Origin: Trypanosoma brucei
Lineage: Eukaryota
DNA: 64,000 nt
Direction: 5' to 3'
NCBI GenBank assembly: GCA_000002445.1
Contig: CM000208.1
Location: 3,744,001 to 3,808,000 of the forward strand
In this document: piece after piece, positions 7,769 through 29,563 of the stretch
Layout of the letters: each line of letters opens with the position of its first letter
Numbering within the stretch: position 1 is the first letter of the stretch
The notes under the pieces: model-generated
Database searches by the model: none
Seen by the model: only the letters and a program-made list of their open reading frames with translations
What the model was told of the DNA's origin: nothing
Position numbers and translations under genes: made by a program

Positions 7769-8379
7769 ATTTTTGATCCCCATAGGTATTTGTTATACTT
7801 TCTACTCCCTCCTCCCTTTCCAGTGCATTCCTTGCTTGTTCCTGGACTCATTTCGTCTTTGAGCCTTTGTCTCATATCGTGTAATACATTTTGAAGTAAC
7901 TTCCACCGCGTGAAAGAGGTGAGGAGGATATGGGGCGCAGCAAACAGGAGGGGAAAGGGGGGAATGACAGCAGTAAAAGTGTCTTGATATACAAATTTGC
8001 ATAGATGCCCCTCCCATTGTGTGGAGCGGTGCGGCATACACGCACAAGTAGTCACGGATCATCCTGATTACTGGAGTTCTTGCACCACAGGCACTTAATG
8101 TGATCTCTCCCCTCTACTTCCTCCCTGCGCAACTCCCACTGTAAGCATCTTCTAGGAAAGAACAAAAAGTAGATAGGGGCACTTTTCTGACTTTCTTTGG
8201 AAATCTTGTTTTAGCTGTGGTAGTTCCCCTGTGGTCCTTGTGTCGTCTGTCTACTACCGGTAATATTTTTACGATTTTAGGTCTATTTTTGGCTCTCCAT
8301 TGCGGGTTGTGGGGGCTTAAAGCGAGGTCAACAAACCTTTAGATAAGTAGACAAGGGAGCGATAATTACCACAATAGAC

Positions 8380-8772
8380 ATGGCGGGCACCACCGCTATA
8401 GTAAAGGACTCGGCAATGTCTCGAGAATTGCAGCAAGACTGCATTGACTGTGCCGCGCATGCACTACACGTCATGGGGCTGAATGAGCAGACCGCGATGG
8501 CACAGTTCATCACGCGCGAACTCAATAGCAAATACGGATCACGTTTCCACTGTGTTGTAGGACGCTCCTTCGGTTCATATGTTGGTCATGACAGCCAGTA
8601 CTTCATCTACTTCCTGATCGGTGATTGTGCGTTTCTGATCTGGCGCACCGTAGATACCTTCGAAGAGCGTGTGTTTTATGCAGCGGTGGACGACATAGCC
8701 GTCGGAAACAAATATTATAGTTGCGAAAAAAACACCTGTGTTGATGAGAAGCTGGGACAAACGTCAATGTAA
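8380..8772 (+). CDS. Dynein light chain LC8 (DYNLL family) with an unusual C-terminal extension of about 40 aa
   Basis: The translation aligns along the whole LC8 fold. [24 protein letters not shown] matches [63 protein letters not shown] matches [41 protein letters not shown]. The ORF then continues for about 42 more residues to the stop at 8772. Confidence 0.85.
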   Translation: [130 protein letters not shown]

Positions 8773-9040
8773 AAAACTTCCAAGTACAGCAACCACCAGC
8801 GTAACACCCCTACAAATGAAATCGGTCGGCTGTGCAATGTCATTTGTTTGTTCTCTTGCCCTTGCATTCACGGAGCTACTTATATGATGCACTAGATCCC
8901 TGCTTGGCACTTGCTATTCAACTCCTCCCCTAAAAAAGACACCTGGTCGTGAACGTGTCAACATAATCCCCATCATCACAATGAATTCACTTGTTTGACA
9001 TATTCAAGTCCAAAGGAAGTGGGTGAAATAGACGGAGGGT

Positions 9041-9658
9041 TTGAATTCTTCTATCAATCAAACGACTATGTATGGTGTTGAGTGTTTTCGGCCACTTGGC
9101 CTCGCCGCCTTTATGTTGGCAGTCCTTTCGGTCGTGCGGGTCGCAACATCAGAAGATGACCCAAACAAACTGACGCCGCAGGAGCGCATAGATAGATACC
9201 GCAAACGAGTTGCGCGGTCGTTCCTCCTTAAGATGGCTGAAGAACCCGGTGCCATGACGCTCCCCTCAGGCGTCGTTGTTCACGTGCTCAACCGCGGCGG
9301 TGGTGGACGGTCGGCTGCTGTTGATGATGAATGCACCGTTCACTACACAGGAACACTGAAGGATGGAACTGTGTTTGACAGCTCACGAGATCGCGGACAG
9401 CCCTTCAAACTTAAGCTGGGCCAAGTGATTGTTGGTTGGCAGGAGGTCCTCCAACTGATGCGACCCGGCGACCGCTGGAAAGTTTTCATCCCACCTGAAC
9501 ACGGCTACGGTGCGAGAGGTGCAGGCCCAAAGATCCCACCCCACTCCGCACTGGTGTTTGACATGGAGTTGATTTCCATTGAAGGCGGCGGCAACGGTCG
9601 CACTGAAAAGGAGGTGGAGGAAGTTCTCAAGGGTTACGCGGGGAAGGGAGACTTGTAA
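9041..9658 (+). CDS. MIP: Secreted FKBP-type peptidyl-prolyl cis-trans isomerase, macrophage infectivity potentiator (MIP)-like
   Basis: N-terminal hydrophobic signal-like segment (LGLAAFMLAVLSVVRVATS) followed by a canonical FKBP domain: VHYTGTLKDGTVFDSSRDRGQPFKLKLGQVIVGWQEVLQLMRPGDRWKVFIPPEHGYGARGAGPKIPPHSALVFDMELISI. Confidence 0.85.
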   Translation: MNSSINQTTMYGVECFRPLGLAAFMLAVLSVVRVATSEDDPNKLTPQERIDRYRKRVARSFLLKMAEEPGAMTLPSGVVVHVLNRGGGGRSAAVDDECTVHYTGTLKDGTVFDSSRDRGQPFKLKLGQVIVGWQEVLQLMRPGDRWKVFIPPEHGYGARGAGPKIPPHSALVFDMELISIEGGGNGRTEKEVEEVLKGYAGKGDL

Positions 9659-10170
9659 TTGGTTGATTATTGAGAGGAAGGGGGAAGGTAAAAGAATTTG
9701 CCGTGTATGATACTGTGCGAGGGTGCATAAACGCGCTTGCTGGTAGTGTTCACCGGGGGATCAGAGTTGTTAGGGAGTTAATGTGTGTTAATAGTGTTTG
9801 TTCCCGTTGGAAGAATTTTCACATATGTATGGGGGAAAGGGAGCAAAATCAAGGCGGCACCGCCCGGGAGGCATCATCTCTACTGCTGTTTTTTGCATAT
9901 CTATTGTGTTTGCCACCCTCCTACTCCTGTAAAGTAGGGGGTTGTATTCTACCGATGTTAAAGCAGAGACAACGACAGAAAATGGCAAGGGCAATAACAA
10001 CCAAAACAACCGTGATCATCCAAGTTGCAGGTACCAATAATGGAGACGATACCAAGTGCCTATCTTATCTCTTGTCACCAAATGAAAAAGTTTCTAAGGA
10101 GAGAAAAAAGCGCGTCATACTCTTTACGAATCATTCCATCACTTTTTTGTTTGTGCGCTTACTTTCAGCA

Positions 10171-10201
10171 TCCTTCCCCTCTCACTGCTTTTTTTTTTTT
10201 T
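10171..10201 (+). promoter_or_regulatory. Polypyrimidine tract, candidate splice-acceptor signal for the FKBP-like gene
   Basis: tccttcccctctcactgc(t)13 lies 32 nt upstream of the ATG at 10233. AG dinucleotides lie between the tract and the ATG. Confidence 0.5.
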
Positions 10202-10232
10202 GGACGGGTTGTTTGTAAGGGTGTAGGTTGCA

Positions 10233-11234
10233 ATGAACAATGGCGATAATTCCTCCGTAGGAAGCATCAGCGCTCCACCGCGGCAGAGACACAAGTTTGG
10301 CACCCGCACAGCTGAAGGTATCGCAGCACCCGTAGCGGCGGGGGGGATAATAACACGTGGAGGGAATTTTCAGAAGCCAACTCCCTCAAGTGACGACTCC
10401 GCGGCCTCAACAGAAGATTTATCTCTGCTCTTGTGGTGTAGCGTCGGGGTTTTCTTGTTGCTGTACGTGATCAGTGGGCGGTTTCACAACCTCTATATAA
10501 CTCCGGAGGATAATGATAAGGCGGAACAAAATTTCCTCCAATATTTGTCTGAGCGTTGGTCTCGCGAAGGTGATGCAATCATCACAAAGGCGTCAAATGA
10601 TGCCAGTTTTACGCAGCACGGTGATGGACGTATTTATTTCCGCGTAATGAATCAAACCTTTCCTATTAAGGAGTCCACGCCGCCACGCGTTGTGTCAAAA
10701 GTATCTCTTCCGGAAGTAAGCAGTGACAACCGGTGGCGCGGTGATTTGAAAAATGCCACAAGTGAGGCAGCCATGGAGTGGCGTAACCTGACTCAGACGA
10801 TGCAATGCGCTGGAATCGATGGGCCACTCATTTTTCACCTTGTCGCGTTTCTTTCGAGTGGCGTGCGCTTTGTGAGTACATATGTTCCACCAGGGAAGCC
10901 TGAGATACGGTCAGTGGGAGCCCACATTCCATGTCTGAATGCCATTCTGCCATTGATGTGCAAAGGTGACAAATGGGAAATTATCTGCCCTCCTGAGATG
11001 GCATTCGGATCCCACGGATTTCAGGAGGTGCCCCCATCTGCGACAACAATCTGGCAGGTTTTCATGTTGGATGTGACTAAAAGCGGGCCACGCACGCGGG
11101 CACACGTGCAAAAGCTCCTCGCGGCAGCGACACGACGTCATTCCGGCGAGGCGCCGATTACTCGAAGGGAATTGTACGAAAGGGCAATGCGAGCCCGTGG
11201 GAAACTGTTGGGTAACGGTGAAGGCACACTGTAA
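10233..11234 (+). CDS. FKBP-like protein with a predicted transmembrane segment and a divergent, probably non-catalytic FKBP domain. It is a tandem paralog of the upstream MIP gene
   Basis: Its C-terminal region aligns to the neighbouring FKBP domain: GDKWEIICPPEMAFGSHGF matches GDRWKVFIPPEHGYGARGA, and PPSATTIWQVFMLDV matches PPHSALVFDMELISI. There is a hydrophobic stretch LSLLLWCSVGVFLLLYVISG near residue 70. Poly-T tract at 10171-10201 immediately upstream. Confidence 0.6.
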   Translation: MNNGDNSSVGSISAPPRQRHKFGTRTAEGIAAPVAAGGIITRGGNFQKPTPSSDDSAASTEDLSLLLWCSVGVFLLLYVISGRFHNLYITPEDNDKAEQNFLQYLSERWSREGDAIITKASNDASFTQHGDGRIYFRVMNQTFPIKESTPPRVVSKVSLPEVSSDNRWRGDLKNATSEAAMEWRNLTQTMQCAGIDGPLIFHLVAFLSSGVRFVSTYVPPGKPEIRSVGAHIPCLNAILPLMCKGDKWEIICPPEMAFGSHGFQEVPPSATTIWQVFMLDVTKSGPRTRAHVQKLLAAATRRHSGEAPITRRELYERAMRARGKLLGNGEGTL

Positions 11235-12864: not shown

Positions 12865-14979
12865 ATGGACCCCTCGAGAGCGTTGCAGGAGGGTTCTGAG
12901 GTCTCTGCACTGAACTCAACGGATAATTTTCAGTTTCCCGCGCAGGCCCTTACGGAATGTACGGAATGCAACGGGGATGTGGCGGCTTCAAGCTTTGCAA
13001 GGCTCTCGACGGATGGTGAAGGCGGTAGAGCAAGTGAAAAGGAAGGTGACTCACCGGATCAGATGGATAATGACAACAGTGAAGGGGGCGAATTTGATAT
13101 TTTTGAAGGCGTGGCCCCCGGCGTCTCGAAATGCTCCACTCCACAAACCGAGGGCACGTACGCGGACCGACAACCCCCTCAGCTCTCCAACGCATTGGAG
13201 CGGGAAACTTCGCAGGAAATAAACCGCATTGAAAATAAAGTAGATGCTGTACGCATTGACAGTAGCACAGTTAACACCTCAGACGACTTTATAAGTACCG
13301 TATTCGACGACGTTGACAGGTCCCCATCCCCATTCATTGTGTTGGACCATGTGGAGGACGGAGGCTGTCTTACGTATCAGGGGACCGTGGACTCGGCCAT
13401 GCTTCCGCTAAAAGAGGAGCGGGCGCGAATACTGCAGCGACTCGGGATGTTGCGTGCCACTGAGCAAAGCCGGAGGCAGCAGCTTTGTAGAAAGTATGAG
13501 GGAGAGGTAAACATGCGAATGGTGTCGCTAGCGGTAACCGCAGCTGAACAGATAGATGCGCCGTATGGAAATAGTACGTATCTGACCTCCTCAAGTGTAG
13601 TTTCCACTAACCTTGATACCCAACACAATGAAGCGGAAGAACGAGAACAAGAACAAGACCAAGACCAAGTTCTCCCCCAGGACAGTAGAAGGGGAGAAAC
13701 TACTGTAACTCGGGGAGTAATGGCGGGCTGTTCGACAACAGTATCAAAGGAAGTAACAGGTAGCGTCCGGGAGGGAGCCTCCCTCGTGTGCGATCAAGTT
13801 GATAATGTAGAGAGTGACGAGGATGAACCTCATTTCACCGAAAGACTAACAATGTTGGACTGCATGACACAGGAGTGCTACAAGGGACTAGTCCAAGAGG
13901 GTGAGTTTTTTTCTGGTGAAGCAGAAAGTATGGTTAGCGAAAACAGTGCGGATACCGACTCCAGTGGAGACGGGGTACACAGCCGCGCTGATAACATGAC
14001 GGTGTGTGACAGTGTCGATTGTAATAAGCTACACACGGCGCCGTCAGAAGGTTTTTACATACCAGTACCCATGGACAGAACAGGACAAGTGGAATACGTC
14101 TTCAATGGAGATGACGCGCAGAGACGGTTGAAGTTTCGTAGAGAGGAATATGAGTTGCAGAGGGCTTTGGGTCGAGTAGAGGGGAAGATAGACGCCCTAA
14201 CAGCGTGTCGCCTCAGCAAAGGCATTCACTACTGGCAGAGCGACGATTCAACTGACAGCTGCCCGCGCTGTGGCAAAGTTTTCTCATTCACTGTGCGGCG
14301 GCATCACTGCCGGCGTTGTGGGGTGTTGCTGTGTAACGACTGCTGTTCACAGGTTGGGCGAGATATGTATGTGCAGGTGCGCACTAGTGCAGTCACAAGT
14401 TCGGACGTGGGGCCTTCCCATGGTTCGTCTTCATCCCAGCGCACTACGGGAAATGCCACGGACGACGCATGGCTATTCGGTACATGTGAGCCTACTGGTT
14501 CTGGGGACACACGGGAAAAAAGACCTGGAAGCACTCCCAACTCACTTCAACCTAACCAAACCATTAGTGACACCTGGCAATACCAGGGGAGTAGCAGTAA
14601 CAACAACAGTCTGCCCAATTGTATATGCCTGCCAAACAACGGACGACGGGATTATCGTGGGCGGGGTGGCCTGAAGGTGCGGTATGTCCCGTGGGTCCGC
14701 ATTTGCAATGCCTGTTATCTTGTCTGCCTTCGCGCCCGACTTGGAGGGAATTATAAACCCATTCTTGAGGACAATCGCCGCCGCTTCCATGTCCTTAAAG
14801 AGGAGGAACAGTCCCTTTTGTGTATCAATAGTACATGGGAAATGCGATGGGCACAACTAAATGTACTGAAACATGTCGTCATTGAGCGAACAGTGCATAT
14901 GGCCCACGACCAGGTGCAGCAAGCGGTTGGGGTATTGTCCGATTGGCTTCAAGAGTGGCGGTTATGCCTCAAACCGTAA
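12865..14979 (+). CDS. FYVE zinc-finger domain protein (704 aa)
   Basis: All three FYVE signatures are present. WxxD appears as HYWQSDDS, R(R/K)HHCRxCG as RRHHCRRCG, and the terminal RVC-type motif as VRICNACY. The rest of the protein is acidic and low-complexity. Confidence 0.8.
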   Translation: MDPSRALQEGSEVSALNSTDNFQFPAQALTECTECNGDVAASSFARLSTDGEGGRASEKEGDSPDQMDNDNSEGGEFDIFEGVAPGVSKCSTPQTEGTYADRQPPQLSNALERETSQEINRIENKVDAVRIDSSTVNTSDDFISTVFDDVDRSPSPFIVLDHVEDGGCLTYQGTVDSAMLPLKEERARILQRLGMLRATEQSRRQQLCRKYEGEVNMRMVSLAVTAAEQIDAPYGNSTYLTSSSVVSTNLDTQHNEAEEREQEQDQDQVLPQDSRRGETTVTRGVMAGCSTTVSKEVTGSVREGASLVCDQVDNVESDEDEPHFTERLTMLDCMTQECYKGLVQEGEFFSGEAESMVSENSADTDSSGDGVHSRADNMTVCDSVDCNKLHTAPSEGFYIPVPMDRTGQVEYVFNGDDAQRRLKFRREEYELQRALGRVEGKIDALTACRLSKGIHYWQSDDSTDSCPRCGKVFSFTVRRHHCRRCGVLLCNDCCSQVGRDMYVQVRTSAVTSSDVGPSHGSSSSQRTTGNATDDAWLFGTCEPTGSGDTREKRPGSTPNSLQPNQTISDTWQYQGSSSNNNSLPNCICLPNNGRRDYRGRGGLKVRYVPWVRICNACYLVCLRARLGGNYKPILEDNRRRFHVLKEEEQSLLCINSTWEMRWAQLNVLKHVVIERTVHMAHDQVQQAVGVLSDWLQEWRLCLKP

Positions 14980-15743
14980 CAAAAAAAAAAGAAAAAAAGA
15001 AGAAAAAGAGGGTCATTCCTTCGTGTCGTTTCTTTGGTTGTTTTATTCATTGATGGTTTCCCGCCCTCATTTCCTTCCCCCCCTTCCCCTTCTACTTTCT
15101 TTTTTACCCTTTTTTTCTTGTTTTTTTTAGTTTTATCGTTCCGGTCTCCTTTCTTTTTTTCTGTTGTTGTTTGACAGATGTTCCAATTATTATTATTATT
15201 ATTCTCGATTGCTATTATGTTTCTCCCATCCGAGTTTTCCTCCTCTATGTATTATCAAGTGAATAAAGGGAAGATGAAAAAAATAAGTGTGTATGCCTAC
15301 GTTTGTACCTCACTACTCGCACAAATTATATATAAACATGTTTGAGTATATTCGAATAAATAAAATAAATGTACACCTTCACGCTCCTTATGGACATCTG
15401 TCTTTAGCTTTTCATTCCACCGTTTTCACCTCGCTTGCTCAGTTCTATTCTGTTTTGTGTTGTGTTGTGTTGTTGTTGTTTTTTTTTTTCCTTTACGTAT
15501 TTTCATTGTTTTATTTGTTTTGTTTTCATCTTTTGTTCCTTTATCACCACTATTTTTGTCATTTTTCTGGCCCACACCTCACAGCCTAGAAGAAGGGGTA
15601 TGTGAAGTAAAAATGTAGCGGTTCCTTTTTGTGTTTTACTTCTGCTTTTTTTTTTGTTTCATGGGTGCGTTAGAGGAGAACGTAGTGTGCGAAAAGAAAA
15701 AAAAGAAAAAAGTGTGTGCATAAGAAGGAAAAGAGAAAAGGAA

Positions 15744-15745
<2 letters not shown>

Positions 15746-15777
<32 letters not shown>
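15746..15777. repeat. (AT)16 microsatellite
   Basis: Direct reading. Lies within the 3-kb low-complexity intergenic interval. Confidence 0.95.
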
Positions 15778-15780
<3 letters not shown>

Positions 15781-16401
15781 AGTTTGAGTGGTTTGTTGAT
15801 TGGGGGGGGGTTGGGAAGGAAGGTGGGATGGAAGAAAAGAGAAGTTGAGAAGCTGAAAAGATGGTAAAACACCAAAATGGCGCTTCGGAGGCCCTCACTG
15901 TCGAGTGGTTGTTTTTTTTTTGTCTTTTGTTTGGGGGGGCGGGAGGGTTTTCCTCTCCCCTTTTCTTGTCTCTCTTGCATAAACGTGGAGACACGGATTT
16001 TTTTTTTAAAAAAAGAGAGAAAACGGAAAAGAAATGTGGGTGCACTCAATATAGAAAAGGAAGTGAGAGTACATATGAAGCCAACTTTTGTACGTATGCT
16101 TACGGAGACATAAGGAATGTATATAATTTCATTACCTTGCGTCGTCTTTGTTGCCATACGCTATCTTTACGTGTGTGTTTGTGTGTGTGTGGGGGGGGGG
16201 GAAATGTGAGGAGTTTTTCTTTATTTTCTTTCTATTTCTTTTTATTTTTCTTTCTTTGCTTCATAGGGTTTTTTTTTCTTGCGGTTCGAGCACAATCTGT
16301 GGTTTTACCTCTGTTGTTGCTCCCATCCCTTTGTACCCCCTTCTTGCATTTCTTCTGTTTTTTTTTGTGTGTGTGTTTGAGTGTGAATGTGTTTGTTAGT
16401 G

Positions 16402-16403
<2 letters not shown>

Positions 16404-16439
<36 letters not shown>

Positions 16440-16458
16440 TTATTATTATTATTATTTT
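16404..16458. repeat. Compound microsatellite (TA)16(TTA)7
   Basis: Direct reading. Confidence 0.95.
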
Positions 16459-17280: not shown

Positions 17281-18036
17281 AGCAGTTTCAAATGAGTCAC
17301 AAAATAAAATACTTTTTTTTAAAAAAAAGTAAAGGTACCAAATGAAAGTGCCGTTTATGAGGGGGAGGGGAAACAAGAAGGAAGAAGAGGTGTGTGTGTG
17401 TGGGGGGGGAGAAAGTTTGTTATTATTTAATTCTACCATTTCTTTTTGGTGCTTTTCCTTATGTTCCCTGTTTTGTTTTATCACTGACCCATCTTGCGTT
17501 TCATCAACAACACACTTTACGTGTACGAACAAACCCCCACCATACACCCCAAAAAACAAAAGGGGAACCAATCCAGATGTATACATGTTGAAGGAAGAAC
17601 ACCATACACTCATACACATATATAAAATATATAAATGAATATAAGTATATTATTTTTTTTTAATTTTTCTTTGAAATATGTTTTGTCTACCCAAGTACTC
17701 GTTACAAAAATGTAGACTCCCTTTCACTGTTCTCCTCAACATTTTTTTTCGACAGTTGTTATCAATATTCGGCTTCATTTGTATCTTCTCTTTCTGTGCA
17801 CTTGTACATACGCATCTCCGTTTACATCTTACTTTCCTTCTCCTTTCCTTCGCTTCAGGAAAAAGGCTGTGGAACAAGTGAAGTAAAGAGGAGGAGGAGG
17901 AGGAGAAAACCTTCAACGGAATACGAACTTTATTCTGTTTTGTTTTTCATTTATTCCGTTTCCTTTTTTTTTTCTTTAAACGAAAAGTAACAGGAGGGAG
18001 GGAAGGAGGGGAAACGCATCGTGAGTACCAAACCAA

Positions 18037-20151
18037 ATGAGCTCTACATTTATTATATCCGCTTCTTATGACAAAGAAATACGCTTTTGGGACGGATCAA
18101 CGGGCCGAACAGTCCGCAGTTTTCCCTTTCAGGGATCACAGGTCAATGCGATGTTGACGATTCCAAACACCACACACCTCGCCGTTGGAGGATTTGGTGC
18201 CGTTCGCGTGTATGATATTGGAGTTGAAGCTGGATCAGCTGGGGGCAATAGTGGAACACAACCACCCCCGGTTTTCTCCGTTTATGAAAATCAATACGCA
18301 ATGAACGTAACGAGCCTGGGGACGTTCCCACTCTACCCGCAGCGTGACGAGGAAATGCACTTAAACTCTGCGGAAGCTTCCATGAGTAGCTTGTTTTGCA
18401 CTTCTGCAGACCTTGCTGCAACCGCCACATTAGACCCCACACCGACCACGGGCTCTGCTGGAGTGTTGACTGTTCTTTTCGCCACTTCGGAGGACGGGCA
18501 CATTCGGTTTTTTAACGCAAACTCACCCACAACACTAAACCTTCTGCTCGATATTAGCGCGGGTGCGGCCATCACGTGCAGTGCCGTCTCCCCGGATCGT
18601 CACACCTTGTTCACCGGTTCCCAGATCGGTCGCGTCTCGGTGTGGCACATACCAAGTATCATTGCGGCAGCTGCGCAACACGGAGACAGCACTAGCAGAG
18701 GTGGTCTCTTTGCTAGTAAGCCAATGCAAGAGATTGCCTTCAATGGGGATTACACAGCCATTAGAAGTATAGCCGTGGAACCGCTGGCGCGTTGGGCTGT
18801 GGCAGCAACAAGTGCTGGGAAGCTTCATTTTATGTGTTTTGGAAGGTGCGCGCAGAACCTTACCGGCACACATGCCTCCGAGGCACACGCAGCTGGAAGG
18901 TTGGCGAATGAAGAGGTGCCTGGAGAAGAGGAAGAAACAAGCCCGCAAGTGCAGCGACCGGTAGCGGAGGGGACGGTCGCCGACAGCGCTCCCGCAATCG
19001 CCACGAATGACTCTAGTTCACGTTCCATTAATTCCGCAAACACCCTGCGCCCTAGTTGCGGGCCCTTGTCTGTGCTTAAAACACATGGAAACGAAGGAAG
19101 TGGGGGTGACGTGGCTGCTAACGCTAGTGAGTCACCCCTTGCTAACGATGGTGTGACATTTTCTGATGCAGTCGACGCCTCAGACACGGGAAATTCAACC
19201 CCGGGAATGGACGTGACCAAGAAGTTCAGCGCACCGGGCCTCTTGACCTCATCATCGGTCAATTCCTCATCCATTCAGCAACAATTTTTTTTGAAGGTTT
19301 TTCACTCGTTTCAGGCGCACCACAAATATATCCTTAAGGTGGCCATCTCACCCAATATAGATATCTTGGTGACATGTTGTGGGGACTACACCGTTGGGAG
19401 ATTCGTAATCCCTCCAATACTTCAGTGCTGTGACGTGACGACCAAGCACGCTTCTGGGTGTGAAAGTGACTCCCACAGCGCAGGAGTATCCTCGCTGACA
19501 AGTGCGGTGAGATTGTCTGGCCTCACCGAGAAAAACACGGCGGCAGGTTCTGATCCCACAAACCAGGTGGCTGCAGCGGGGGATAACAATGGGGCCGGAG
19601 CTGGTGGTGCAACCGCAGCAAGTTCGTCCTCACTTCTTCAACCTAAGGCAGATGAGGGTGCCGTCCTCACTCCTACAGCGGCACCGTCAACGTCGTTTAC
19701 ACATGATGGATCAACTGGAAGCGTAGAAGATGGTGTAAAGCCGGTGGCTGCGGTAGCTAATGACCCTACCGTGAATGAATCTCAACCCTTGGCAACGATG
19801 GAAACGGTGAAAAAAATGACAAGTCCTGCTGACGCCCCAACAGAGAGGCATGATGCGTTCCACTTGGCCACGTCAAACTTTCCACAGCTGGTTGCAGAGG
19901 GAAGTACACAAGTTAACATTGGCGATGGGGTTGAGTTCAAGGAACTAAAACCCCTGACAGGACACACGCGGTGGGTCTGGGACTGTGCCTTCAGTGATTG
20001 CGGGAGGTTTCTCTTCACAGCTAGCAGCGACCAAACGTTACGTATGTGGACCTCTCTCCTCAGTGACAGACCACATTCCACCAGCTTCGTTGGTCATATG
20101 AAACCAGTGGTGTGCTGCATGCTCTATGTGGAAAGGAAGAAAAACCAATAG
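18037..20151 (+). CDS. LST8: LST8 (TOR complex WD40 subunit) homolog containing two large low-complexity insertions
   Basis: The N-terminus ISASYDKEIRFWDGSTGRTVRSFPFQGSQVNAMLTIPNTTHLAVGGFGAVRVYDI aligns with LST8 [57 protein letters not shown]. The C-terminus GHTRWVWDCAFSDCGRFLFTASSDQTLRMW...GHMKPVVCCML aligns with [28 protein letters not shown]...GHQKAVVCLAF. The internal blades LFATSEDGHIRFF and HHKYILKVAISPNIDILVTCCGDYTVGRF also align. Confidence 0.75.
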   Translation: MSSTFIISASYDKEIRFWDGSTGRTVRSFPFQGSQVNAMLTIPNTTHLAVGGFGAVRVYDIGVEAGSAGGNSGTQPPPVFSVYENQYAMNVTSLGTFPLYPQRDEEMHLNSAEASMSSLFCTSADLAATATLDPTPTTGSAGVLTVLFATSEDGHIRFFNANSPTTLNLLLDISAGAAITCSAVSPDRHTLFTGSQIGRVSVWHIPSIIAAAAQHGDSTSRGGLFASKPMQEIAFNGDYTAIRSIAVEPLARWAVAATSAGKLHFMCFGRCAQNLTGTHASEAHAAGRLANEEVPGEEEETSPQVQRPVAEGTVADSAPAIATNDSSSRSINSANTLRPSCGPLSVLKTHGNEGSGGDVAANASESPLANDGVTFSDAVDASDTGNSTPGMDVTKKFSAPGLLTSSSVNSSSIQQQFFLKVFHSFQAHHKYILKVAISPNIDILVTCCGDYTVGRFVIPPILQCCDVTTKHASGCESDSHSAGVSSLTSAVRLSGLTEKNTAAGSDPTNQVAAAGDNNGAGAGGATAASSSSLLQPKADEGAVLTPTAAPSTSFTHDGSTGSVEDGVKPVAAVANDPTVNESQPLATMETVKKMTSPADAPTERHDAFHLATSNFPQLVAEGSTQVNIGDGVEFKELKPLTGHTRWVWDCAFSDCGRFLFTASSDQTLRMWTSLLSDRPHSTSFVGHMKPVVCCMLYVERKKNQ

Positions 20152-21054: not shown

Positions 21055-22821
21055 ATGTTTGTTACCTCGCAACTAACACATATGCGGAGGCTCTCGGTAT
21101 CGTTCCTACCGTTTCACCTGATCGTCACTACTCAGCGTCGCCAATTTGGTGGAAACTCGAAGGATGGGCACAAGGGGGAGGACAAACCGATAGAACGCGT
21201 AGGAGGAGTGCCACCCACAGGTCCCCATCCGTTTAACATCACTAGTGGAGCAGAAGGACAAATCTCCAACCAGCAGCGCAAGGCCCACGATGCCATAACT
21301 CAACTTTTCCGCGACGACGCGCAGCGAAAGGCACTATATCAGAAGCCTGGTAGGACCATTGGGGCCCAAACTACAACTGCCGCCATCTCGACGCCGCCGA
21401 ATGAAGATGAATTTGAGGGTCTGCAGCCCATTTCAGGTGATGCGGAGCCGTCGTCCATCACTGCAGTGGAGGCTGTGGAGCAAGAGTTGTTAGACGATGC
21501 TTTTTTGTATTTTCCACCCGCACAGCAGTCCGCGAGTGGCAGTGTCGCTACCACTGCTACTAACGAACTGTACGTACCGGGACAGCAAATCATTCCTCCC
21601 GGATTAACGCGCTACCGAGTGGATGTGCAATACCAGGGAAATGATTTTGATGGATGGTGGAAGAGCACGACACGCCAGCTTTTCAGACGTGAGGTCGGTT
21701 TAGATGGCTCAATCACGCGGGTGCCGGTGGCGGAGCCAGGAACCATCGGAAACGCTGCTGGGGTCTCTCGAGGGGAGACGATGGGTAGCAGATATCATGC
21801 GCGAACAGTGTTGGAGGAAGCACTTGCCGTGGCGCTCGATGTGAATACGGTCCGTGTTGTGGCCGGTGTCATACCTGAGGTTGGGGTGTCTGTGCGACGT
21901 CTCTGCTGTCACGTCGATGTACCCAGTCACATTGAGCTGCAGCCACGAACAGTGATTCAGCGGGCCACTATGTGGATGGAAAAACGCCAACAACCCCTAG
22001 CCATTTTGAGTTATCGTCGATGCAAGAACCAAGACTTTCACGCACGCCACAGTGGCTTGAGGCGTGTCTATGTTTACCGCATTCTGAATCGTGTCGCACC
22101 GCCCTTATTCGACGCTGGGCTCCAGTGGCATGTAGATCGCCACCTCGATGTGGACCGGATGAAGCGATTTGCTAAAACCCTTGAGGGCACAAAGGACTTC
22201 GGTTACTTTGCTGACCCCAAGATGGCAAATGCGCTGCGGCGGGCAGCCATGAGCCCTGGTGGTTTTTCTACAGGGGCAGTAACGGAAGAAAACTTCCAAC
22301 CAAAAGCTACAGGGGAATCGCACCGAGTGACGCGCGGCAAAGCGCCGAAGGTGACGATGGAAAAAGGCCCCAGTAACCTTGATCGAGCCGCAGCGCTTCC
22401 AACTTTTAACGAGTACGGCCAGCGAGTTGTGCAGCCAGGTGCTCATGGAAAAGAATATTACCGTGTTGCAACCAATCTACCGACGGTACGGACAGTCGAC
22501 AGGCTTGATGTGGTGCGGCAGGATGATGAGGTGCTTATTTGGTTTGTAGGCCGCTCTTTCCTCCGTCATCAAATTCGAAATATGGTAAGTGTGCTGAAGG
22601 CAGCTGGACACGGTCTGTGGAATGATCTGGAACTCCAGCAGGCCCTGCAAAGCGGCTTTGAGCCGTCACGGCATCGGTTCAAGCGGGAGCGCTTCCCAAC
22701 AGCACCGGCGTATGGCTTGACATTGTGGGATGTGGAGTACCCGGATCAGCACCGAGACGATTACGTGCAATTTGTCGATTCTGGACCATATGAACAAGTG
22801 AACATCGCCCGTGACATATAA
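21055..22821 (+). CDS. TruA-family tRNA pseudouridine synthase (PUS1-like) with a roughly 180-aa N-terminal extension
   Basis: Four TruA motifs are present. RYRVDVQYQGNDFDGWWKST corresponds to [27 protein letters not shown] corresponds to RRYRYII. FVGRSFLRHQIRNMVSVLKAAG corresponds to AFVHHMVRNIVGSLMEVG. YGLTLWDVEYPD corresponds to EGLYLVAVDYPD. Confidence 0.75.
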   Translation: MFVTSQLTHMRRLSVSFLPFHLIVTTQRRQFGGNSKDGHKGEDKPIERVGGVPPTGPHPFNITSGAEGQISNQQRKAHDAITQLFRDDAQRKALYQKPGRTIGAQTTTAAISTPPNEDEFEGLQPISGDAEPSSITAVEAVEQELLDDAFLYFPPAQQSASGSVATTATNELYVPGQQIIPPGLTRYRVDVQYQGNDFDGWWKSTTRQLFRREVGLDGSITRVPVAEPGTIGNAAGVSRGETMGSRYHARTVLEEALAVALDVNTVRVVAGVIPEVGVSVRRLCCHVDVPSHIELQPRTVIQRATMWMEKRQQPLAILSYRRCKNQDFHARHSGLRRVYVYRILNRVAPPLFDAGLQWHVDRHLDVDRMKRFAKTLEGTKDFGYFADPKMANALRRAAMSPGGFSTGAVTEENFQPKATGESHRVTRGKAPKVTMEKGPSNLDRAAALPTFNEYGQRVVQPGAHGKEYYRVATNLPTVRTVDRLDVVRQDDEVLIWFVGRSFLRHQIRNMVSVLKAAGHGLWNDLELQQALQSGFEPSRHRFKRERFPTAPAYGLTLWDVEYPDQHRDDYVQFVDSGPYEQVNIARDI

Positions 22822-27469: not shown

Positions 27470-29563
27470 GTGAAGACGGCCACTCAAACTCTGAGTTTAT
27501 CGGTGACAATGTTCTCACAGCTACGAGTTCACCTCGTCGTCCACAAGGGCAGCGGTGGAGGCAAAGGCGGCAAAATGATGAGGCGTGTAGAAAAGGCGTT
27601 ACGAAGAAATTTCAGTGCCATCACCATTCGGGAGCTAACAGGCAGTGAGGCTCTGGCGGAACATATGGATCCTACCGGGCATGCAGTTGGAAGCGGAACA
27701 GAAGTGATGCAAGACACAAACCCAACTGCAGGCAGGGATCGCACAACCGATGGAGTCGTAGCAAATGAAGGCGTTGAAGGTGAGTTGATTCCTTGTTTGG
27801 CCCTGTGTGTGGATATCATCACCACAGAGGGTGCATTACGTGTAAGGGAGGTCGTAGAGGAACTCGCGTGTCGGGTGGTGAGCGGCATTCTCCGAAATGC
27901 ACTTGGGTCGGGCAATGGGACAAATATGGCGATAGATCCAGTGACAAATGAAGTGAAGAGTGTTTGGACGAAAGTTTTTAATGTGTTTGCCGTCATTGGT
28001 GGAGATGGCTCGTTAGGTGAGGCCGTTAATGGGCTCTGCTTCGGAACTCTCAAAGCCTATCGTAGTGGATTTTGTACTGCACTCGACACTGCAGCTTGCA
28101 GTCGTCCAGATTCCATGCACTACTACCGTGGGATGCTTGAGGACCGGGCAATACTGCGTCACTTTCTACCACCCGTAATGTATGTACCCGCAGGAACAGG
28201 CTCGGACTTCGCTAGAACCAGGTTGTGCTGTCTCAATGCCGAAGAGTTCGTAACCGTTCTAAGAGACATGCACGAATACCTTGCATTTACCAGTGATGGG
28301 GAAGGGTCGCAGCGTACTATAAAATACAGCACTTGTTTGCCCATTGGTAGCCCCTCGAGCGCCTCAACAAGCGGATCCATTGATTGCTCTGTGGGCCCAG
28401 ATTGCGCTAGCGGCGGCAGCACCGAAGCCTGCGGTAAGGGTCCCAAATCGCTGTCGCGTAGATTTGCGGTGTACGACGTGGACGTCTCTCGAATCACATT
28501 CCCTCGGAGTGGGCGCACGCGCTTTTTTATCAATGAGTGCTCGTGTGGTATGTCATGTGACGTGATCTCACGTTGCGAAAAATACAAACAGTCATGTACA
28601 GCTTCATTCGTTGCGGGCCCGGTACTGTTTGCAGCAGCATCTGTGGCTTCTGTTATGCGGATGAAGCCCAGATCCTTCCGGGTTTTCCCCCTTCCTGATT
28701 TCCCCACGCCGCCGCCCTCTATGGGTCACCAGCACAAAGTGCCTGTCGTTGGTGTGCTGCATCCGCGTCATCTCTCCATGGGGGTAGCGGTCTCCGGGAT
28801 GTGCGAGGAAATGTCGTGGTTACAACGCTGTGAAGAAGTTGGTGCTTTATCCCCCAGTACGGAACCGTTACGTGTAGACGCCAACTATTACATTTACAAA
28901 TATGATAGGGAAGGGGGATACCCGTCGACGCCTGATTTATCCGGCGGCGCTGTTGGAGCGCAGTCAACCGACATAGGTAGTGAAAAAGAAACCGTTATCA
29001 ATCCATTCTACACTGATTGGAGGTGCGAAAGTGCGTCTAACACGAAGGAACTTCTTTCCATCTTAGATAGAAACGGTGTGTATGATCGGTGGACATGTTT
29101 CTCCTCTTCCACACTCGTATTTGGTAACGGGCGCTGGTTCGGTGGTGGGCTGCAAGTCGCCCCACACGCCAATCCAACGGACGGCCTGTTGAGTGTGACG
29201 AATTGGGTAGCAAGTCCCTGCCAGTTCGTCATGGGTGCACCGTCTTTGTACAATGGCAACCATAAACGTTGGCGCAGCACGACAATTTGGAACACAAGTA
29301 GGTGCATCATGGATGTTGATACTATCTCCACACAAGAGCCGAAATTTCCCGATTCCTCTCCGCCGAACCCCGTGGGTACTGATGTTAAGTGTAATGGGGA
29401 GCAGGTTGAGGGCACGGAAGAGATACTAAACGGCGGTGGGGGGGCGCCAGACAAAATAATGATGTGGTGTGAAGCCGATGGTGAGTTGTGCGAACCCATC
29501 CCTGCCATCGTGGAGGTGACCACCACTGTTTCGATGATATTACCACTACGGACAGTGTTTTAA
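27470..29563 (+). CDS. Lipid kinase of the DAGK-catalytic-domain family (sphingosine kinase / ceramide kinase / diacylglycerol kinase-like)
   Basis: Motifs VHLVVHKGSGGGKG (N-terminal Gly-rich motif), FAVIGGDGSLGEAVNGL (GGDG), PAGTGSDFART and GGGLQVAPHANPTDGLL (C-terminal DGLL-type motif). Confidence 0.7.
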   Translation: MKTATQTLSLSVTMFSQLRVHLVVHKGSGGGKGGKMMRRVEKALRRNFSAITIRELTGSEALAEHMDPTGHAVGSGTEVMQDTNPTAGRDRTTDGVVANEGVEGELIPCLALCVDIITTEGALRVREVVEELACRVVSGILRNALGSGNGTNMAIDPVTNEVKSVWTKVFNVFAVIGGDGSLGEAVNGLCFGTLKAYRSGFCTALDTAACSRPDSMHYYRGMLEDRAILRHFLPPVMYVPAGTGSDFARTRLCCLNAEEFVTVLRDMHEYLAFTSDGEGSQRTIKYSTCLPIGSPSSASTSGSIDCSVGPDCASGGSTEACGKGPKSLSRRFAVYDVDVSRITFPRSGRTRFFINECSCGMSCDVISRCEKYKQSCTASFVAGPVLFAAASVASVMRMKPRSFRVFPLPDFPTPPPSMGHQHKVPVVGVLHPRHLSMGVAVSGMCEEMSWLQRCEEVGALSPSTEPLRVDANYYIYKYDREGGYPSTPDLSGGAVGAQSTDIGSEKETVINPFYTDWRCESASNTKELLSILDRNGVYDRWTCFSSSTLVFGNGRWFGGGLQVAPHANPTDGLLSVTNWVASPCQFVMGAPSLYNGNHKRWRSTTIWNTSRCIMDVDTISTQEPKFPDSSPPNPVGTDVKCNGEQVEGTEEILNGGGGAPDKIMMWCEADGELCEPIPAIVEVTTTVSMILPLRTVF

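What the first reader, a model, noticed from the sequence alone, without database searches (positions are those of the whole stretch)
18037..20151. LST8 (TORC subunit) ortholog expanded to 704 aa by two low-complexity insertions between WD blades
Canonical LST8 is about 300-330 aa and is almost pure beta-propeller. Here the conserved blades are recognisable at both ends and internally. Two long S/T/A/G-rich insertions interrupt them, at about 18850-19300 and about 19440-19900. They probably form surface loops. Such loops could be lineage-specific regulatory or phospho-regulated elements of TOR signalling.
Basis: partly seen in the sequence, partly recalled or inferred. Interest (0 to 1): 0.55.

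Follow-up and report, generated by a model that had tools for sequence, protein, structure and literature searches.

The report
Trypanosome LST8 with long disordered loops
This gene is the already-published Trypanosoma brucei LST8, the small propeller-shaped partner of the TOR growth-control kinase. Five floppy, fast-evolving surface loops more than double its size, and nobody has yet tested what those loops do.

Summary
An intact 704-aa ORF lies at exactly 18037-20151 (+). Its sequence is identical to XP_828034.1 / Q387V0 / Tb927.10.15640, which the literature already names as T. brucei LST8. Sequence profiles, an AlphaFold model and Foldseek all put solved LST8 structures first. The four mLST8 residues needed for mTOR binding are invariant in the kinetoplastid sequences.

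The 316-aa core has the size of a canonical LST8 and is predicted to fold as a complete 7-blade propeller. It is interrupted at five fixed loop sites, not two. The two large inserts are aa 269-416 and 464-630. All five are c-d or a-b loops, on the face opposite the TOR-contact residues. The inserts are S/T/A/G-rich, acidic, non-repetitive and predicted disordered.

They grew stepwise: about 10-30 aa in human, a euglenid and a heterolobosean, about 85-105 aa in Bodo saltans, and 100-200 aa in trypanosomatids. In related species their dN/dS is 0.35-0.52 against 0.04-0.10 for the core, so they are translated and weakly constrained.

I found no evidence for the proposed phospho-regulation. The gene is known, the loop anatomy is an incremental description, and interest is low to moderate.

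The parts
18037..20151 (+). Complete CDS of TbLST8 (Tb927.10.15640; XP_828034.1; UniProt Q387V0), 704 aa plus stop
   Evidence: ORF listing. Exact-sequence match to XP_828034.1/EAN78922.1/Q387V0. Published RNAi primers for 'mLST8 (Tb927.10.15640)' map to 18452-18471 and 18994-19013. A proteomics table row links Tb927.10.15640 to Q387V0 at 73.5 kDa.
18037..18222 (+). Core block 1 (aa 1-62): strands b, c, d of the closing blade and a, b, c of blade 2. Holds TOR-contact residues Q35 (18139-18141) and N37 (18145-18147).
   Evidence: AF2 strands E3-10, 14-19, 25-30, 36-41, 47-53, 55-60 at pLDDT about 86-93. Aligns to human mLST8 10-70. S34, Q35 and N37 are invariant in 18 and 25 kinetoplastid sequences. 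Human Q44 and N46 are needed for mTOR binding.
18223..18264 (+). ins1 (aa 63-76): small G/A/S-rich c-d loop of blade 2, directly before the d strand
   Evidence: pLDDT<50 at 66-72. Length is 8-36 aa across species. In human mTORC2 the d strand of blade 2 pairs with SIN1.
18265..18342 (+). Core block 2 (aa 77-102): strand d of blade 2 and strand a of blade 3
   Evidence: AF2 E79-84 and E90-99. Block length is 26 in 15 of the 18 sequences and 28-29 in the two most divergent.
18343..18459 (+). ins2 (aa 103-141): a-b loop insertion in blade 3, predicted disordered
   Evidence: pLDDT<50 at 103-141. This site is 0-4 aa in human, Rhabdomonas, Pharyngomonas and Bodo saltans, and 31-59 aa in trypanosomatids.
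18460..18660 (+). Core block 3 (aa 142-208): strands b, c, d of blade 3 and a, b, c of blade 4
   Evidence: AF2 E144-151, 155-160, 168-174, 179-184, 190-195, 199-204 at pLDDT 81-96. Block length is 67 in all 18 species.
18661..18720 (+). ins3 (aa 209-228): c-d loop of blade 4, a short helix followed by a loop
   Evidence: AF2 H205-214 at pLDDT 63-76. Length is 19-63 aa across species. In L. major it is predicted as a helical hairpin, 230-255/269-293.
18721..18840 (+). Core block 4 (aa 229-268): strand d of blade 4 and a, b, c of blade 5
   Evidence: AF2 E231-234, 242-247, 253-258, 262-268. Block length is 40 in all 18 species.
18841..19284 (+). Insert A (aa 269-416, 148 aa): c-d loop of blade 5. 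Acidic, S/T/A/G-rich, predicted disordered. aa 338-352 (nt 19048-19092) is the degenerate remnant of the PRE[ST]IYRSALV.NELS motif conserved in other kinetoplastids.
   Evidence: pLDDT<50 at 275-406. Falls between human mLST8 residues ~200 and 214. No in-frame stops; 62/20000 shuffles stop-free. Length is 128-200 aa across species. Motif comparison.
19285..19425 (+). Core block 5 (aa 417-463): strand d of blade 5 and a, b, c of blade 6 (the 'QAHxKYILKV...TCxADYT' block)
   Evidence: AF2 E419-426, 432-437, 443-448, 453-457 at pLDDT 81-95. The profile aligns to yeast Lst8 200-230. Block length is 47 in all 18 species.
19426..19926 (+). Insert B (aa 464-630, 167 aa): c-d loop of blade 6. Acidic, S/T/A/G-rich, predicted disordered.
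   Evidence: pLDDT<50 at 466-629. Falls between human mLST8 residues ~254 and 256. No in-frame stops; 10/20000 shuffles stop-free. Length is 91-196 aa across species.
19927..20148 (+). Core block 6 (aa 631-704): strand d of blade 6, blade 7, and the C-terminal a strand that closes the ring. Holds TOR-contact residues W646 (19972-19974) and W648 (19978-19980).
   Evidence: AF2 E635-640, 647-652, 659-663, 667-672, 680-685, 691-699 at pLDDT 88-96. Aligns to human 256-326 and yeast 245-300. W646 and W648 are invariant. Human W272 and W274 are needed for mTOR binding.
17832..17986 (+). Two polypyrimidine tracts (17832-17851 and 17959-17977), each followed by AG (17857, 17986). These are candidate trans-splice acceptor signals for the mRNA. 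This is inference only.
   Evidence: Pattern scan. No transcript data were available.

Best explanation
The ORF encodes TbLST8, the WD40 subunit shared by the trypanosome TOR kinase complexes. Its 316-residue core is predicted to fold as a normal closed seven-bladed propeller. The residues that bind the TOR kinase domain in other eukaryotes lie in d-a loops on the 'top' face, and they are kept.

The extra 388 residues sit in five loops on the opposite side. Four are c-d loops, in blades 2, 4, 5 and 6, and one is an a-b loop in blade 3. The inserts are acidic, S/T/A/G-rich and non-repetitive, and they are predicted to be disordered.

These loops are structurally permissive: unrelated eukaryotic LST8s have expanded at the same sites. 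In the kinetoplastid lineage the loops grew stepwise and have been kept under weak purifying selection.

My reading is that the core does the canonical LST8 job of binding and stabilising the TOR kinase C-lobe and acting as a platform. The T. brucei loops are most likely tolerated flexible appendages that point away from the TOR interface. At most they have a generic, composition-dependent role, such as a spacer or solubility aid, or weak and transient contacts. They are probably not a specific switch.

How firm each part is:
- Shown: identity, architecture, loop positions, evolutionary pattern, weak constraint in related species.
- Inferred: which face the loops lie on relative to TOR, and the absence of a specific function.
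- My confidence in identity and architecture is about 0.95. My confidence in the 'mostly passenger loops' reading is about 0.5.
For: Identity:
- The sequence exactly matches XP_828034.1/Q387V0. That protein is cited as the experimentally determined T. brucei LST8 (PMC5745459).
- Published RNAi primers for Tb927.10.15640 map inside the ORF.
- The Leishmania orthologue is syntenic and lies on the record whose accession offset fits chromosome 19. LmxM.19.1010, labelled LST8, co-enriched with TOR1 and RPTOR1 (PMC10933368).

Family:
- The kinetoplastid profile hits LST8 chains at E 3e-40 to 3e-34, in register. WDR5, the next natural single-propeller protein, is at about 1e-12.
- It aligns end to end with human mLST8 at 88/303 identity.
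- The top three Foldseek hits are mLST8 chains, with TM 0.81-0.84 normalised to the target.
- Q35, N37, W646 and W648 correspond to human Q44, N46, W272 and W274 and are invariant.

Architecture:
- AF2 gives 28 strands in 7 blades with the core at pLDDT about 90. The inserts are below pLDDT 50. The L. major model shows the same pattern.

Permissive loops and stepwise growth (with names):
- insA/insB lengths are 10/19 in human, 25/10 in Rhabdomonas, 28/33 in Pharyngomonas, 105/84 in Bodo saltans and 132-200/99-204 in trypanosomatids.
- Unrelated long LST8s expanded at the same sites: P0117 (55/96), P0113 and P0110.

Constraint and expression:
- dN/dS is 0.04-0.10 for the core and 0.35-0.52 for the pooled inserts in five species pairs, with confidence intervals below 1.
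- Insert identity between T. brucei and T. congolense is 33-38%, against 82% for the core.
- The one conserved motif in any insert is degenerate in T. brucei.
- The protein is detected by MS in two datasets, and its predicted mass of 73.5 kDa is that of the full-length product.
Against: - No kinetoplastid examined has lost insert A or B, although trypanosomatid genomes are compact. Together with pooled dN/dS clearly below 1, this argues for some function.
- Insert A carries a strongly conserved motif in Leishmaniinae and several other lineages, so in those species at least it is more than a passenger.
- The face assignment comes from strand order in an AF2 model plus the WD40 top/bottom convention. 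It was not measured on coordinates or in a complex.
- dN/dS was measured in the T. cruzi clade and in Leishmania, not on the T. brucei lineage, because no T. congolense DNA was available.
- I read the T. brucei TOR association only second-hand. Barquilla 2012 is not held.
Confidence: 0.6

Rival explanations
1. The inserts would be specific regulatory or docking modules. They could be phospho-regulated loops, or carriers of short linear motifs that recruit kinetoplastid-specific partners. That would let one LST8 serve four TOR paralogues, including TORC4 with Armtor and MVP.
For: - Inserts A and B are retained in every kinetoplastid sequence examined, at 128-200 and 91-196 aa.
- Pooled insert dN/dS is 0.35-0.52, below 1.
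- Insert A has a conserved motif, PRE[ST]IYRSALV.NELS, in many lineages. In the L. major model it appears as a short low-confidence helix, as a bind-on-contact motif would.
- The inserts hold 94 Ser+Thr in 388 aa and carry a conserved acidic bias.
- LST8 sits at the periphery of TOR complexes next to the active-site cleft and is used as a platform by SIN1 and PRAS40.
Against: - The only conserved motif is degenerate in T. brucei, T. congolense, T. vivax and the T. cruzi clade.
- No other conserved island exists in any insert.
- No phosphosite rows were found in the three searchable datasets, though at least two of the files are truncated.
- There are only 6 SP/TP sites.
- L. infantum against L. 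major gives dN/dS of about 1.3 for insert B, with a confidence interval of 0.69-2.85.
- The same loops expand sporadically in unrelated eukaryotes, as expected for permissive sites.
Confidence: 0.3
2. The inserts would not be part of the protein. They would be unrecognised cis-spliced introns or an annotation or assembly artefact, and the real product would be a ~320-aa LST8.
For: Canonical LST8 is 303-326 aa, and the T. brucei core blocks sum to 316 aa. No peptide-level map onto the inserts could be obtained.
Against: - There are no in-frame stops across 444 nt and 501 nt, against 4-14 in the other forward frames. Shuffle frequencies are 0.003 and 0.0005.
- The frame is preserved in more than 25 species despite length differences.
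- Pooled insert dN/dS is below 1 in all five species pairs, so selection acts on the encoded amino acids.
- A conserved peptide motif lies inside insert A in other species.
- Insert GC resembles the coding core, 0.50-0.57, and not the intergenic DNA.
- From general knowledge rather than anything tested here, cis-splicing is known for only a couple of trypanosome genes.
Confidence: 0.02
3. The protein would be a divergent WD40 protein or a decaying paralogue and not the functional LST8. The true LST8 would be a canonical-size WD40 protein elsewhere, such as the orthologue of LdCL_100015100, which one BLAST survey lists as Leishmania LST8.
For: - Lypaczewski 2021 lists LdCL_100015100 (314/326 aligned, 20% identity, E 2e-12) as LST8 (PMC7901767).
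- Pairwise BLASTP of human mLST8 against the T. brucei protein gives only fragmentary HSPs, E 1e-11 and 4e-8.
- Pfam reports only generic WD40 matches.
- I could not run a reciprocal search against the T. brucei proteome.
Against: - The profile and fold searches put LST8 far ahead of other natural single-propeller proteins, colinear from N- to C-terminus.
- All four TOR-contact residues are invariant.
- The core is under strong purifying selection, dN/dS 0.04-0.10.
- The protein is expressed.
- The protein that co-enriched with Leishmania TOR1 and RPTOR1 is LmxM.19.1010, on chromosome 19 and not chromosome 10. This fits the accession offsets of the Leishmania records carrying the syntenic orthologue.
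- XP_828034 is cited as experimentally determined TbLST8.
- 20% identity at E 2e-12 is typical of a generic WD40 cross-hit.
Confidence: 0.03

Closest known systems
Human mLST8 and yeast Lst8 (PDB 4JSN chain D, 6EMK chain B, 5FVM chain C, 6ZWM chain C)
   Same: - A seven-bladed WD40 propeller with a core of about 316 residues.
- Colinear alignment from N- to C-terminus at 29% identity to human.
- The same signature blocks (SQVN, AH.KYIL..SPD...LATCSAD, RWVWDCAFS).
- The four mTOR-contact residues are conserved.
- LST8 chains are the best sequence and fold matches.
   Different: - 704 aa against 303-326 aa.
- Five loop insertions totalling 388 aa (55% of the protein), predicted disordered, in c-d and a-b loops.
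- The human loops at the two big sites are only about 10 and 19 residues.
Leishmania LST8 (LmxM.19.1010; L. major P0021, 814 aa), which co-purifies with TOR1 and RPTOR1
   Same: - Syntenic orthologue: the next downstream gene in both is a pseudouridine synthase.
- The same five insertion sites and the same core block lengths.
- Core 59% identical to T. brucei.
   Different: - About 110 aa longer: insert A is ~198 aa and ins3 is 63 aa, predicted as a helical hairpin.
- It keeps the PRE[ST]IYRSALV.NELS motif in insert A, which T. brucei has lost.
- Insert sequences are only 11-13% identical to T. brucei.
Bodo saltans LST8 (CUG90715.1, 512 aa) and euglenid Rhabdomonas costata LST8 (EP00906_P035302, 339 aa)
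   Same: They share the Euglenozoa-type core signatures and are the nearest named relatives outside the trypanosomatids.
   Different: - Bodo has intermediate inserts (A 105 aa, B 84 aa) and essentially no ins2.
- Rhabdomonas is canonical in size (A 25 aa, B 10 aa).
- Together they bracket the stepwise expansion.
Other long LST8-like proteins outside Euglenozoa (P0117 476 aa, P0113 387 aa, P0110 388 aa; unnamed environmental or Logan sequences)
   Same: They have S/T/N/Q-rich insertions at the same c-d loops (sites ins1, A and B) of an otherwise canonical LST8 propeller.
   Different: The insertions are smaller (46-96 aa) and occur at one or two sites only. I infer independent origin from sequence; the source organisms are not identified.

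Membership tests
LST8 (TOR complex WD40 subunit) | Single closed seven-bladed WD40 propeller | tested here: met
   AF2 gives 28 beta-strands in 7 blades of 4, with a 3+1 closure (N-terminal b, c, d plus C-terminal a). 234 residues have pLDDT of 90 or more. The L. major orthologue gives the same result.
LST8 (TOR complex WD40 subunit) | Sequence closer to LST8 than to any other WD40 family, colinear over the whole propeller | tested here: met
   The kinetoplastid profile hits LST8 chains in the PDB at E 2.9e-40 to 3.2e-34, with profile 3-70, 459-489 and 660-717 on Lst8 2-69, 200-230 and 245-300. The only interloper is the 14-repeat protein 2ymu_A. WDR5 is at about 1e-12. The end-to-end alignment to verified human mLST8 is 88/303 identical.
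LST8 (TOR complex WD40 subunit) | Fold most similar to solved LST8 | tested here: met
   Foldseek against the PDB ranks three mLST8 chains first (8era_C, 4jsp_C, 6zwm_C), E 7e-18 to 3e-15, TM 0.81-0.84 normalised to the target. Propellers are all similar, so this is supportive and not decisive.
LST8 (TOR complex WD40 subunit) | Conservation of the residues that contact the mTOR LBE (human Q44, N46, W272, W274) | tested here: met
   These map to Tb Q35, N37, W646 and W648. All four are invariant in 18 and 25 kinetoplastid sequences. The residue list comes from PMC10903481, citing Hwang 2019.
LST8 (TOR complex WD40 subunit) | Physical association with TOR kinase and Raptor or Rictor | not testable with these tools
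   Literature only. XP_828034 is described as 'experimentally determined as LST8 ortholog' (PMC5745459, citing Barquilla 2012). It is listed as part of TbTORC4 (PMC5617986). The Leishmania protein LmxM.19.1010 co-enriched with TOR1 and RPTOR1 (PMC10933368 dataset). The primary T. brucei paper is not held.
LST8 (TOR complex WD40 subunit) | Unique best orthologue in the genome (reciprocal best hit; LST8 is single-copy in eukaryotes) | not tested
   No T. brucei proteome was searchable. One BLAST-only survey names a different Leishmania protein, LdCL_100015100. van Dam 2011 reports no LST8 duplications.
LST8 (TOR complex WD40 subunit) | Compact size (~300-330 aa, almost pure propeller). This is typical of the family and not defining. 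| tested here: not met
   704 aa, with 388 aa outside the propeller core. The 316-aa core itself is canonical in size.
Phospho-regulated disordered loop | Experimentally observed phosphosites within the inserts | tested here: inconclusive
   Tb927.10.15640 appears only in protein-level tables (6 and 5 peptides). No phosphosite rows were found in PMC6907760, PMC11408851 or bioRxiv 2020.02.07.938761, and at least two of those files were cut when stored. Urbaniak 2013 is not held.
Cis-spliced intron | Sequence not under protein-level selection and free to break the reading frame | tested here: not met
   No in-frame stops. The frame is preserved across species with variable lengths. Pooled insert dN/dS is 0.35-0.52, with confidence intervals below 1.

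The most novel reading that the evidence does not exclude
The kinetoplastid-specific disordered loops of LST8 could be lineage-specific docking or regulatory tethers. Insert A is the main candidate, because it carries an ancestral PRE[ST]IYRSALV.NELS motif. Such tethers would let a single LST8 assemble with four different TOR kinases and with parasite-only partners such as Armtor and MVP in TORC4. Erosion of the motif in the T. brucei and T. cruzi clades would then reflect rewiring of TOR-complex composition. If so, this would be a parasite-specific surface on an otherwise universally conserved subunit.
Probability: 0.15. Interest if true: 0.55.

Novelty: already known. Interest (0 to 1): 0.25.

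Why it matters
LST8 is the one subunit shared by all TOR complexes, and kinetoplastids are unusual in having four TOR kinases.

A parasite LST8 that is 55% disordered loops is a clear structural departure from the host protein. If the loops have a function, they could be a parasite-specific handle on TOR signalling.

There is also a practical point. The inserts break pairwise alignments. This probably explains three things:
- The gene is still labelled 'hypothetical protein' or 'WD domain' in public records.
- A review calls its similarity to LST8 'limited'.
- One BLAST-based survey assigned a different Leishmania protein as LST8.

The gene's identity is already published, so the contribution here is descriptive. 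It covers the exact loop anatomy, the stepwise origin within Euglenozoa, the weak purifying selection on the loops, and one conserved motif that T. brucei has lost.

Tried and rejected
- Tandem duplicate. The ORF just upstream (12865-14979) is also exactly 704 aa. It is an unrelated FYVE-finger protein, so the equal length is a coincidence.
- Repeat-derived inserts. Tandem Repeats Finder and the direct-repeat search found nothing meaningful inside the CDS.
- Reaching canonical LST8s with the search for homologous proteins. The search returned only kinetoplastid orthologues and bacterial multi-repeat WD40 proteins. The PDB profile search and the representative-library search were used instead.
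- Primary papers. Barquilla 2012 (PMC3437835) and Urbaniak 2013 (PMC3646404) are not held, so T. brucei TOR association is cited second-hand.
- Phosphosites. No rows turned up in the three supplements that could be searched, and a fourth paper had no supplements held.
- The 210-eukaryote TOR/AMPK survey preprint says nothing about kinetoplastid LST8 length. A search for LST8 + trypanosomatid + insertion found nothing relevant.
- Within-Trypanozoon variation. There are only about 5 amino-acid differences, split between core and inserts, which is too few for any test.
- dN/dS on the T. brucei lineage itself was not possible. T. congolense has no contig in the collection and T. vivax is too divergent. 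The T. cruzi clade and Leishmania pairs were used instead.
- AF2 on the L. major orthologue, to see whether the conserved insert-A motif docks onto the propeller. It gave only a short helix at pLDDT about 31-34, which is uninformative for a monomer.
- The cluster look-ups named only a few of the intermediate-length sequences. P0054 comes from a Colponema vietnamica transcriptome. I suspect it may be prey-derived, but did not check.


Full report
**1. The observation**

An ATG-initiated ORF of 704 codons lies at exactly 18037-20151 on the + strand. An in-frame stop sits five codons upstream of the ATG, at 18022, so the start is not ambiguous. GC is 0.49-0.57 across the ORF and about 0.31-0.42 in the upstream flank. 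Pfam reports only generic WD40 matches.

An alignment of 18 kinetoplastid orthologues resolves six conserved core blocks separated by five variable stretches. The AlphaFold2 model built on that alignment shows the same division. The stretches are:
- ins1: aa 63-76
- ins2: aa 103-141
- ins3: aa 209-228
- insert A: aa 269-416, nt 18841-19284
- insert B: aa 464-630, nt 19426-19926

It missed three smaller ones. The core blocks sum to 316 aa and the inserts to 388 aa, 55% of the protein.

**2. Identity**

The translated sequence is identical to XP_828034.1 / EAN78922.1 / UniProt Q387V0 of T. brucei brucei TREU927, where it is annotated 'hypothetical protein, conserved'. [quoted passage not shown] 2012. 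A review lists TbLST8 as part of TbTORC4 (PMC5617986).

A 2024 preprint targets 'mLST8 (Tb927.10.15640)' by RNAi. Its reverse primer matches window 18994-19013 exactly. Its forward primer matches 18452-18471 except for one T missing from the printed table. A proteomics table links Tb927.10.15640 to Q387V0, with 6 peptides, 12.2% coverage, a predicted mass of 73.5 kDa and a cytoplasm annotation (PMC6907760 supplement). A bloodstream-form dataset also detects the protein, with 5 peptides.

The window is therefore T. brucei chromosome 10, and the gene is the known TbLST8.

**3. Tests of LST8 membership done here**

- phmmer of the protein against PDB sequences finds LST8 as the best natural match. 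The match is in register at both ends: query 5-62 on LST8 ~8-71, and 633-696 on 239-300.
- A profile of the kinetoplastid family hits LST8 chains at E 2.9e-40 to 3.2e-34. Only the 14-repeat protein 2ymu_A falls among them. WDR5, the next natural single-propeller protein, is at about 1e-12.
TbLST8 aligns to it end to end, 88/303 identical, and every large gap falls at one of the five sites.
- Foldseek of the AF2 model against the PDB ranks three mLST8 chains first, from mTORC1, mTORdeltaN-mLST8 and mTORC2, with TM 0.81-0.84 normalised to the target.
- Mutating four mLST8 residues (Q44, N46, W272, W274) disrupts mTOR binding (PMC10903481). They correspond to Tb Q35, N37, W646 and W648, all invariant in the kinetoplastid alignments.

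Pairwise BLASTP against human mLST8 gives only fragmentary HSPs, E 1e-11 and 4e-8. This explains the 'limited similarity' remark. It also probably explains why one BLAST survey named a different Leishmania protein, LdCL_100015100 (20% identity), as LST8 (PMC7901767).

The protein that actually co-enriched with Leishmania TOR1 and RPTOR1 is LmxM.19.1010 (PMC10933368 dataset). The L. major, L. infantum and L. braziliensis orthologues of our gene lie on records whose accession offsets fit chromosome 19. In L. major the pseudouridine-synthase gene lies next downstream, as it does in the window.

**4. Anatomy**

The AF2 model has 28 strands forming 7 blades. The ring closes with the N-terminal b, c and d strands plus the C-terminal a strand. 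The core is at pLDDT about 90, and segments 66-72, 103-141, 275-406 and 466-629 are below 50.

Reading the strand order gives the loop types:
- ins1, ins3, insert A and insert B are c-d loops of blades 2, 4, 5 and 6.
- ins2 is the a-b loop of blade 3.

By the standard WD40 convention (established knowledge), d-a and b-c loops form the top face and a-b and c-d loops form the bottom. The TOR-contact residues lie at d-a junctions. I therefore infer that all five inserts leave the TOR-binding face untouched and project from the opposite side. I could not measure this on coordinates.

In human mTORC2, SIN1 pairs with the d strand of blade 2 and anchors between blades 1 and 7 (PMC7673708). If blades are numbered from the N-terminus, the two large inserts in blades 5 and 6 are away from those sites. 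Only the small ins1 adjoins the blade-2 d strand.

**5. Nature of the inserts**

- They are enriched in S, T, A and G: 49% against 31% in the core.
- They are poor in hydrophobic and aromatic residues: 18% against 40%.
- They are acidic, with a net charge of -26.
- Their entropy is 3.8 bits, and there are no tandem or direct repeats in the DNA.

'Compositionally biased and predicted disordered' is therefore more accurate than 'low-complexity'.

**6. Are the inserts translated?**

Inserts A and B have no in-frame stops, against 4-14 in the other forward frames. Only 62 and 10 of 20000 shuffles are stop-free. The frame is maintained in every orthologue even though insert lengths vary about two-fold, A from 128 to 200 aa and B from 91 to 196 aa, while the core blocks keep almost exactly constant lengths.

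I computed codon-level divergence for five species pairs from the T. cruzi clade and Leishmania:

| Region | dN/dS |
|---|---|
| Core | 0.04-0.10 |
| Pooled inserts | 0.35-0.52 |

The bootstrap intervals for the pooled inserts lie below 1 in all five pairs. One short-range comparison, insert B between L. infantum and L. major, is compatible with neutrality at 1.3 (interval 0.69-2.85).

The inserts are therefore coding, weakly constrained and fast-evolving, as is typical of disordered regions. Between T. brucei and T. congolense the core is 82% identical, insert A 38% and insert B 33%. This rules out the intron and pseudogene rivals for practical purposes.

**7. Origin**

I ran a full HMMER scan of 1.84 billion representative proteins with the family profile, then measured each site on a joint alignment. 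Lengths at insert A / insert B are:

| Source | insA / insB (aa) | Total length |
|---|---|---|
| Human | 10 / 19 | 326 aa |
| Rhabdomonas costata (euglenid) | 25 / 10 | 339 aa |
| Pharyngomonas kirbyi (heterolobosean) | 28 / 33 | 359 aa |
| Bodo saltans | 105 / 84 | 512 aa |
| Unnamed environmental sequences | 49-99 / 21-89 | 481-496 aa |
| Trypanosomatids | 132-200 / 99-204 | 652-837 aa |

ins2 is essentially absent from Bodo saltans and all the non-kinetoplastid sequences. The expansion is therefore a stepwise kinetoplastid feature and is not specific to T. brucei.

Unrelated long LST8-like proteins have expanded at the same loops: P0117 (476 aa), P0113 (387 aa) and P0110 (388 aa). This marks the loops as structurally permissive sites.

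**8. One conserved element**

The only conservation island inside any insert is PRE[ST]IYRSALV.NELS in insert A. It is nearly invariant in Leishmaniinae and in a deep-branching sequence (P0009). It is recognisable in T. grayi, in T. theileri and in the most divergent kinetoplastid-like sequences. It is degenerate in T. brucei (aa 338-352), T. congolense, T. vivax and the T. cruzi clade.

In an AF2 model of L. major LST8 the motif is a short helix at pLDDT about 31-34. That fits a bind-on-contact motif but proves nothing.

**9. Interpretation**

- Shown: the gene is TbLST8. The propeller and the TOR-contact residues are intact. The extra mass lies in five bottom-side loops that are predicted disordered, are translated and weakly constrained, and arose stepwise in the kinetoplastid lineage.
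- Inferred: the core performs the canonical LST8 role. The T. brucei loops are mainly tolerated flexible appendages with at most a generic role. I put this at about 0.5.
  - For it: universal retention of the inserts, dN/dS below 1, and the motif in other lineages.
  - Against it: the motif is lost in T. brucei, no other conserved islands exist, no phosphosite records were found in the searchable files (some of them truncated), and the same loops expand in unrelated eukaryotes.

**10. Novelty and score**

The gene and its LST8 identity are already published, and the protein's length has been in public databases since the genome was released. I found no paper that describes the loop architecture, so the anatomy, the phylogenetic gradient, the selection analysis and the motif are incremental description.

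A specialist would be mildly interested and not surprised, so I score interest at 0.25. The most novel reading still open is that the loops are parasite-specific docking tethers that let one LST8 serve four TOR kinases. I give that a probability of about 0.15 and an interest of about 0.55 if true.

Noticed in passing
L001 (L. major) gene 8001-10445, protein residues ~434-450; degenerate counterpart at window 19048-19092: Insert A of kinetoplastid LST8 holds one strongly conserved short motif, PRE[ST]IYRSALV.NELS. It is nearly invariant in Leishmaniinae and in P0009. It is recognisable in T. grayi, in T. theileri and in the most divergent sequences (RLSTYASALEANN). It is eroded in the T. brucei and T. 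cruzi clades. It is a candidate partner-binding linear motif.
   Followed up: partly
Literature compared with window 18037-20151: The literature disagrees on which trypanosomatid protein is LST8. Lypaczewski 2021 lists LdCL_100015100 (chromosome 10, 20% identity, BLAST only). The protein that co-purifies with Leishmania TOR1 and RPTOR1 is LmxM.19.1010, the apparent orthologue of this gene. NCBI still calls the T. brucei protein 'hypothetical protein, conserved'.
   Followed up: partly
window 18452-18471: The forward RNAi primer printed for mLST8 in bioRxiv 10.1101/2024.11.27.625582 (gctctgctggagtgtgact) lacks one T relative to the genome (GCTCTGCTGGAGTGTTGACT). The reverse primer matches 18994-19013 exactly. 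This is probably a typo in the table.
   Followed up: yes
window 12865-14979 (+): The gene immediately upstream is also exactly 704 aa. It is an unrelated FYVE zinc-finger protein, so the equal length is a coincidence and not a duplication.
   Followed up: yes
window 10233-11234 (+): A 333-aa protein with a C-terminal FKBP-type peptidyl-prolyl isomerase domain lies two genes upstream of LST8. It belongs to the rapamycin-receptor domain family but is much larger than FKBP12. I did not examine any functional link to TOR.
   Followed up: no
window 1-64000: Sixteen of the 17 ORFs of 250 aa or more are on the + strand, as expected for one trypanosome polycistronic unit. The single minus-strand ORF (32756-33706) is nested inside the 2402-aa ORF. 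Identified genes include a VPS53-C-like protein (79-1089), a pseudouridine synthase (21055-22821), a DAG-kinase-like protein (27470-29563), a mitochondrial carrier (51207-52178) and a PSD13/PCI proteasome lid subunit (53525-54778).
   Followed up: partly
window 30453-37661 and 39512-49870 (+): There are two very large ORFs, of 2402 aa and 3452 aa. The 2402-aa ORF has no Pfam match at E<=1e-4, and the 3452-aa ORF was not scanned. Several smaller overlapping ORFs at 32756-33706 suggest a compositionally unusual or repetitive stretch inside the first.
   Followed up: no
window ~15600-16450 and 17618-17968: The intergenic DNA around the gene carries simple repeats. TA-rich microsatellites show up as 'IYIYIY' in spurious ORF translations. 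There is also a (GAG)6 run at 17888-17905 and polypyrimidine tracts at 17832-17851 and 17959-17977, each followed by AG, which are probably trans-splicing signals.
   Followed up: no
P0117, P0113, P0110 (proteins): LST8-like proteins from unidentified non-euglenozoan sources carry S/T/N/Q-rich insertions at the same c-d loops (sites ins1, A and B). These loops look like general hot spots for expansion in LST8.
   Followed up: partly
L001 (L. major) protein residues 230-293: In Leishmania the ins3 site (63 aa) is predicted as a helical hairpin, H230-255 and H269-293, with pLDDT mostly about 67-85. It may be an ordered lineage-specific addition and not a disordered loop.
   Followed up: no
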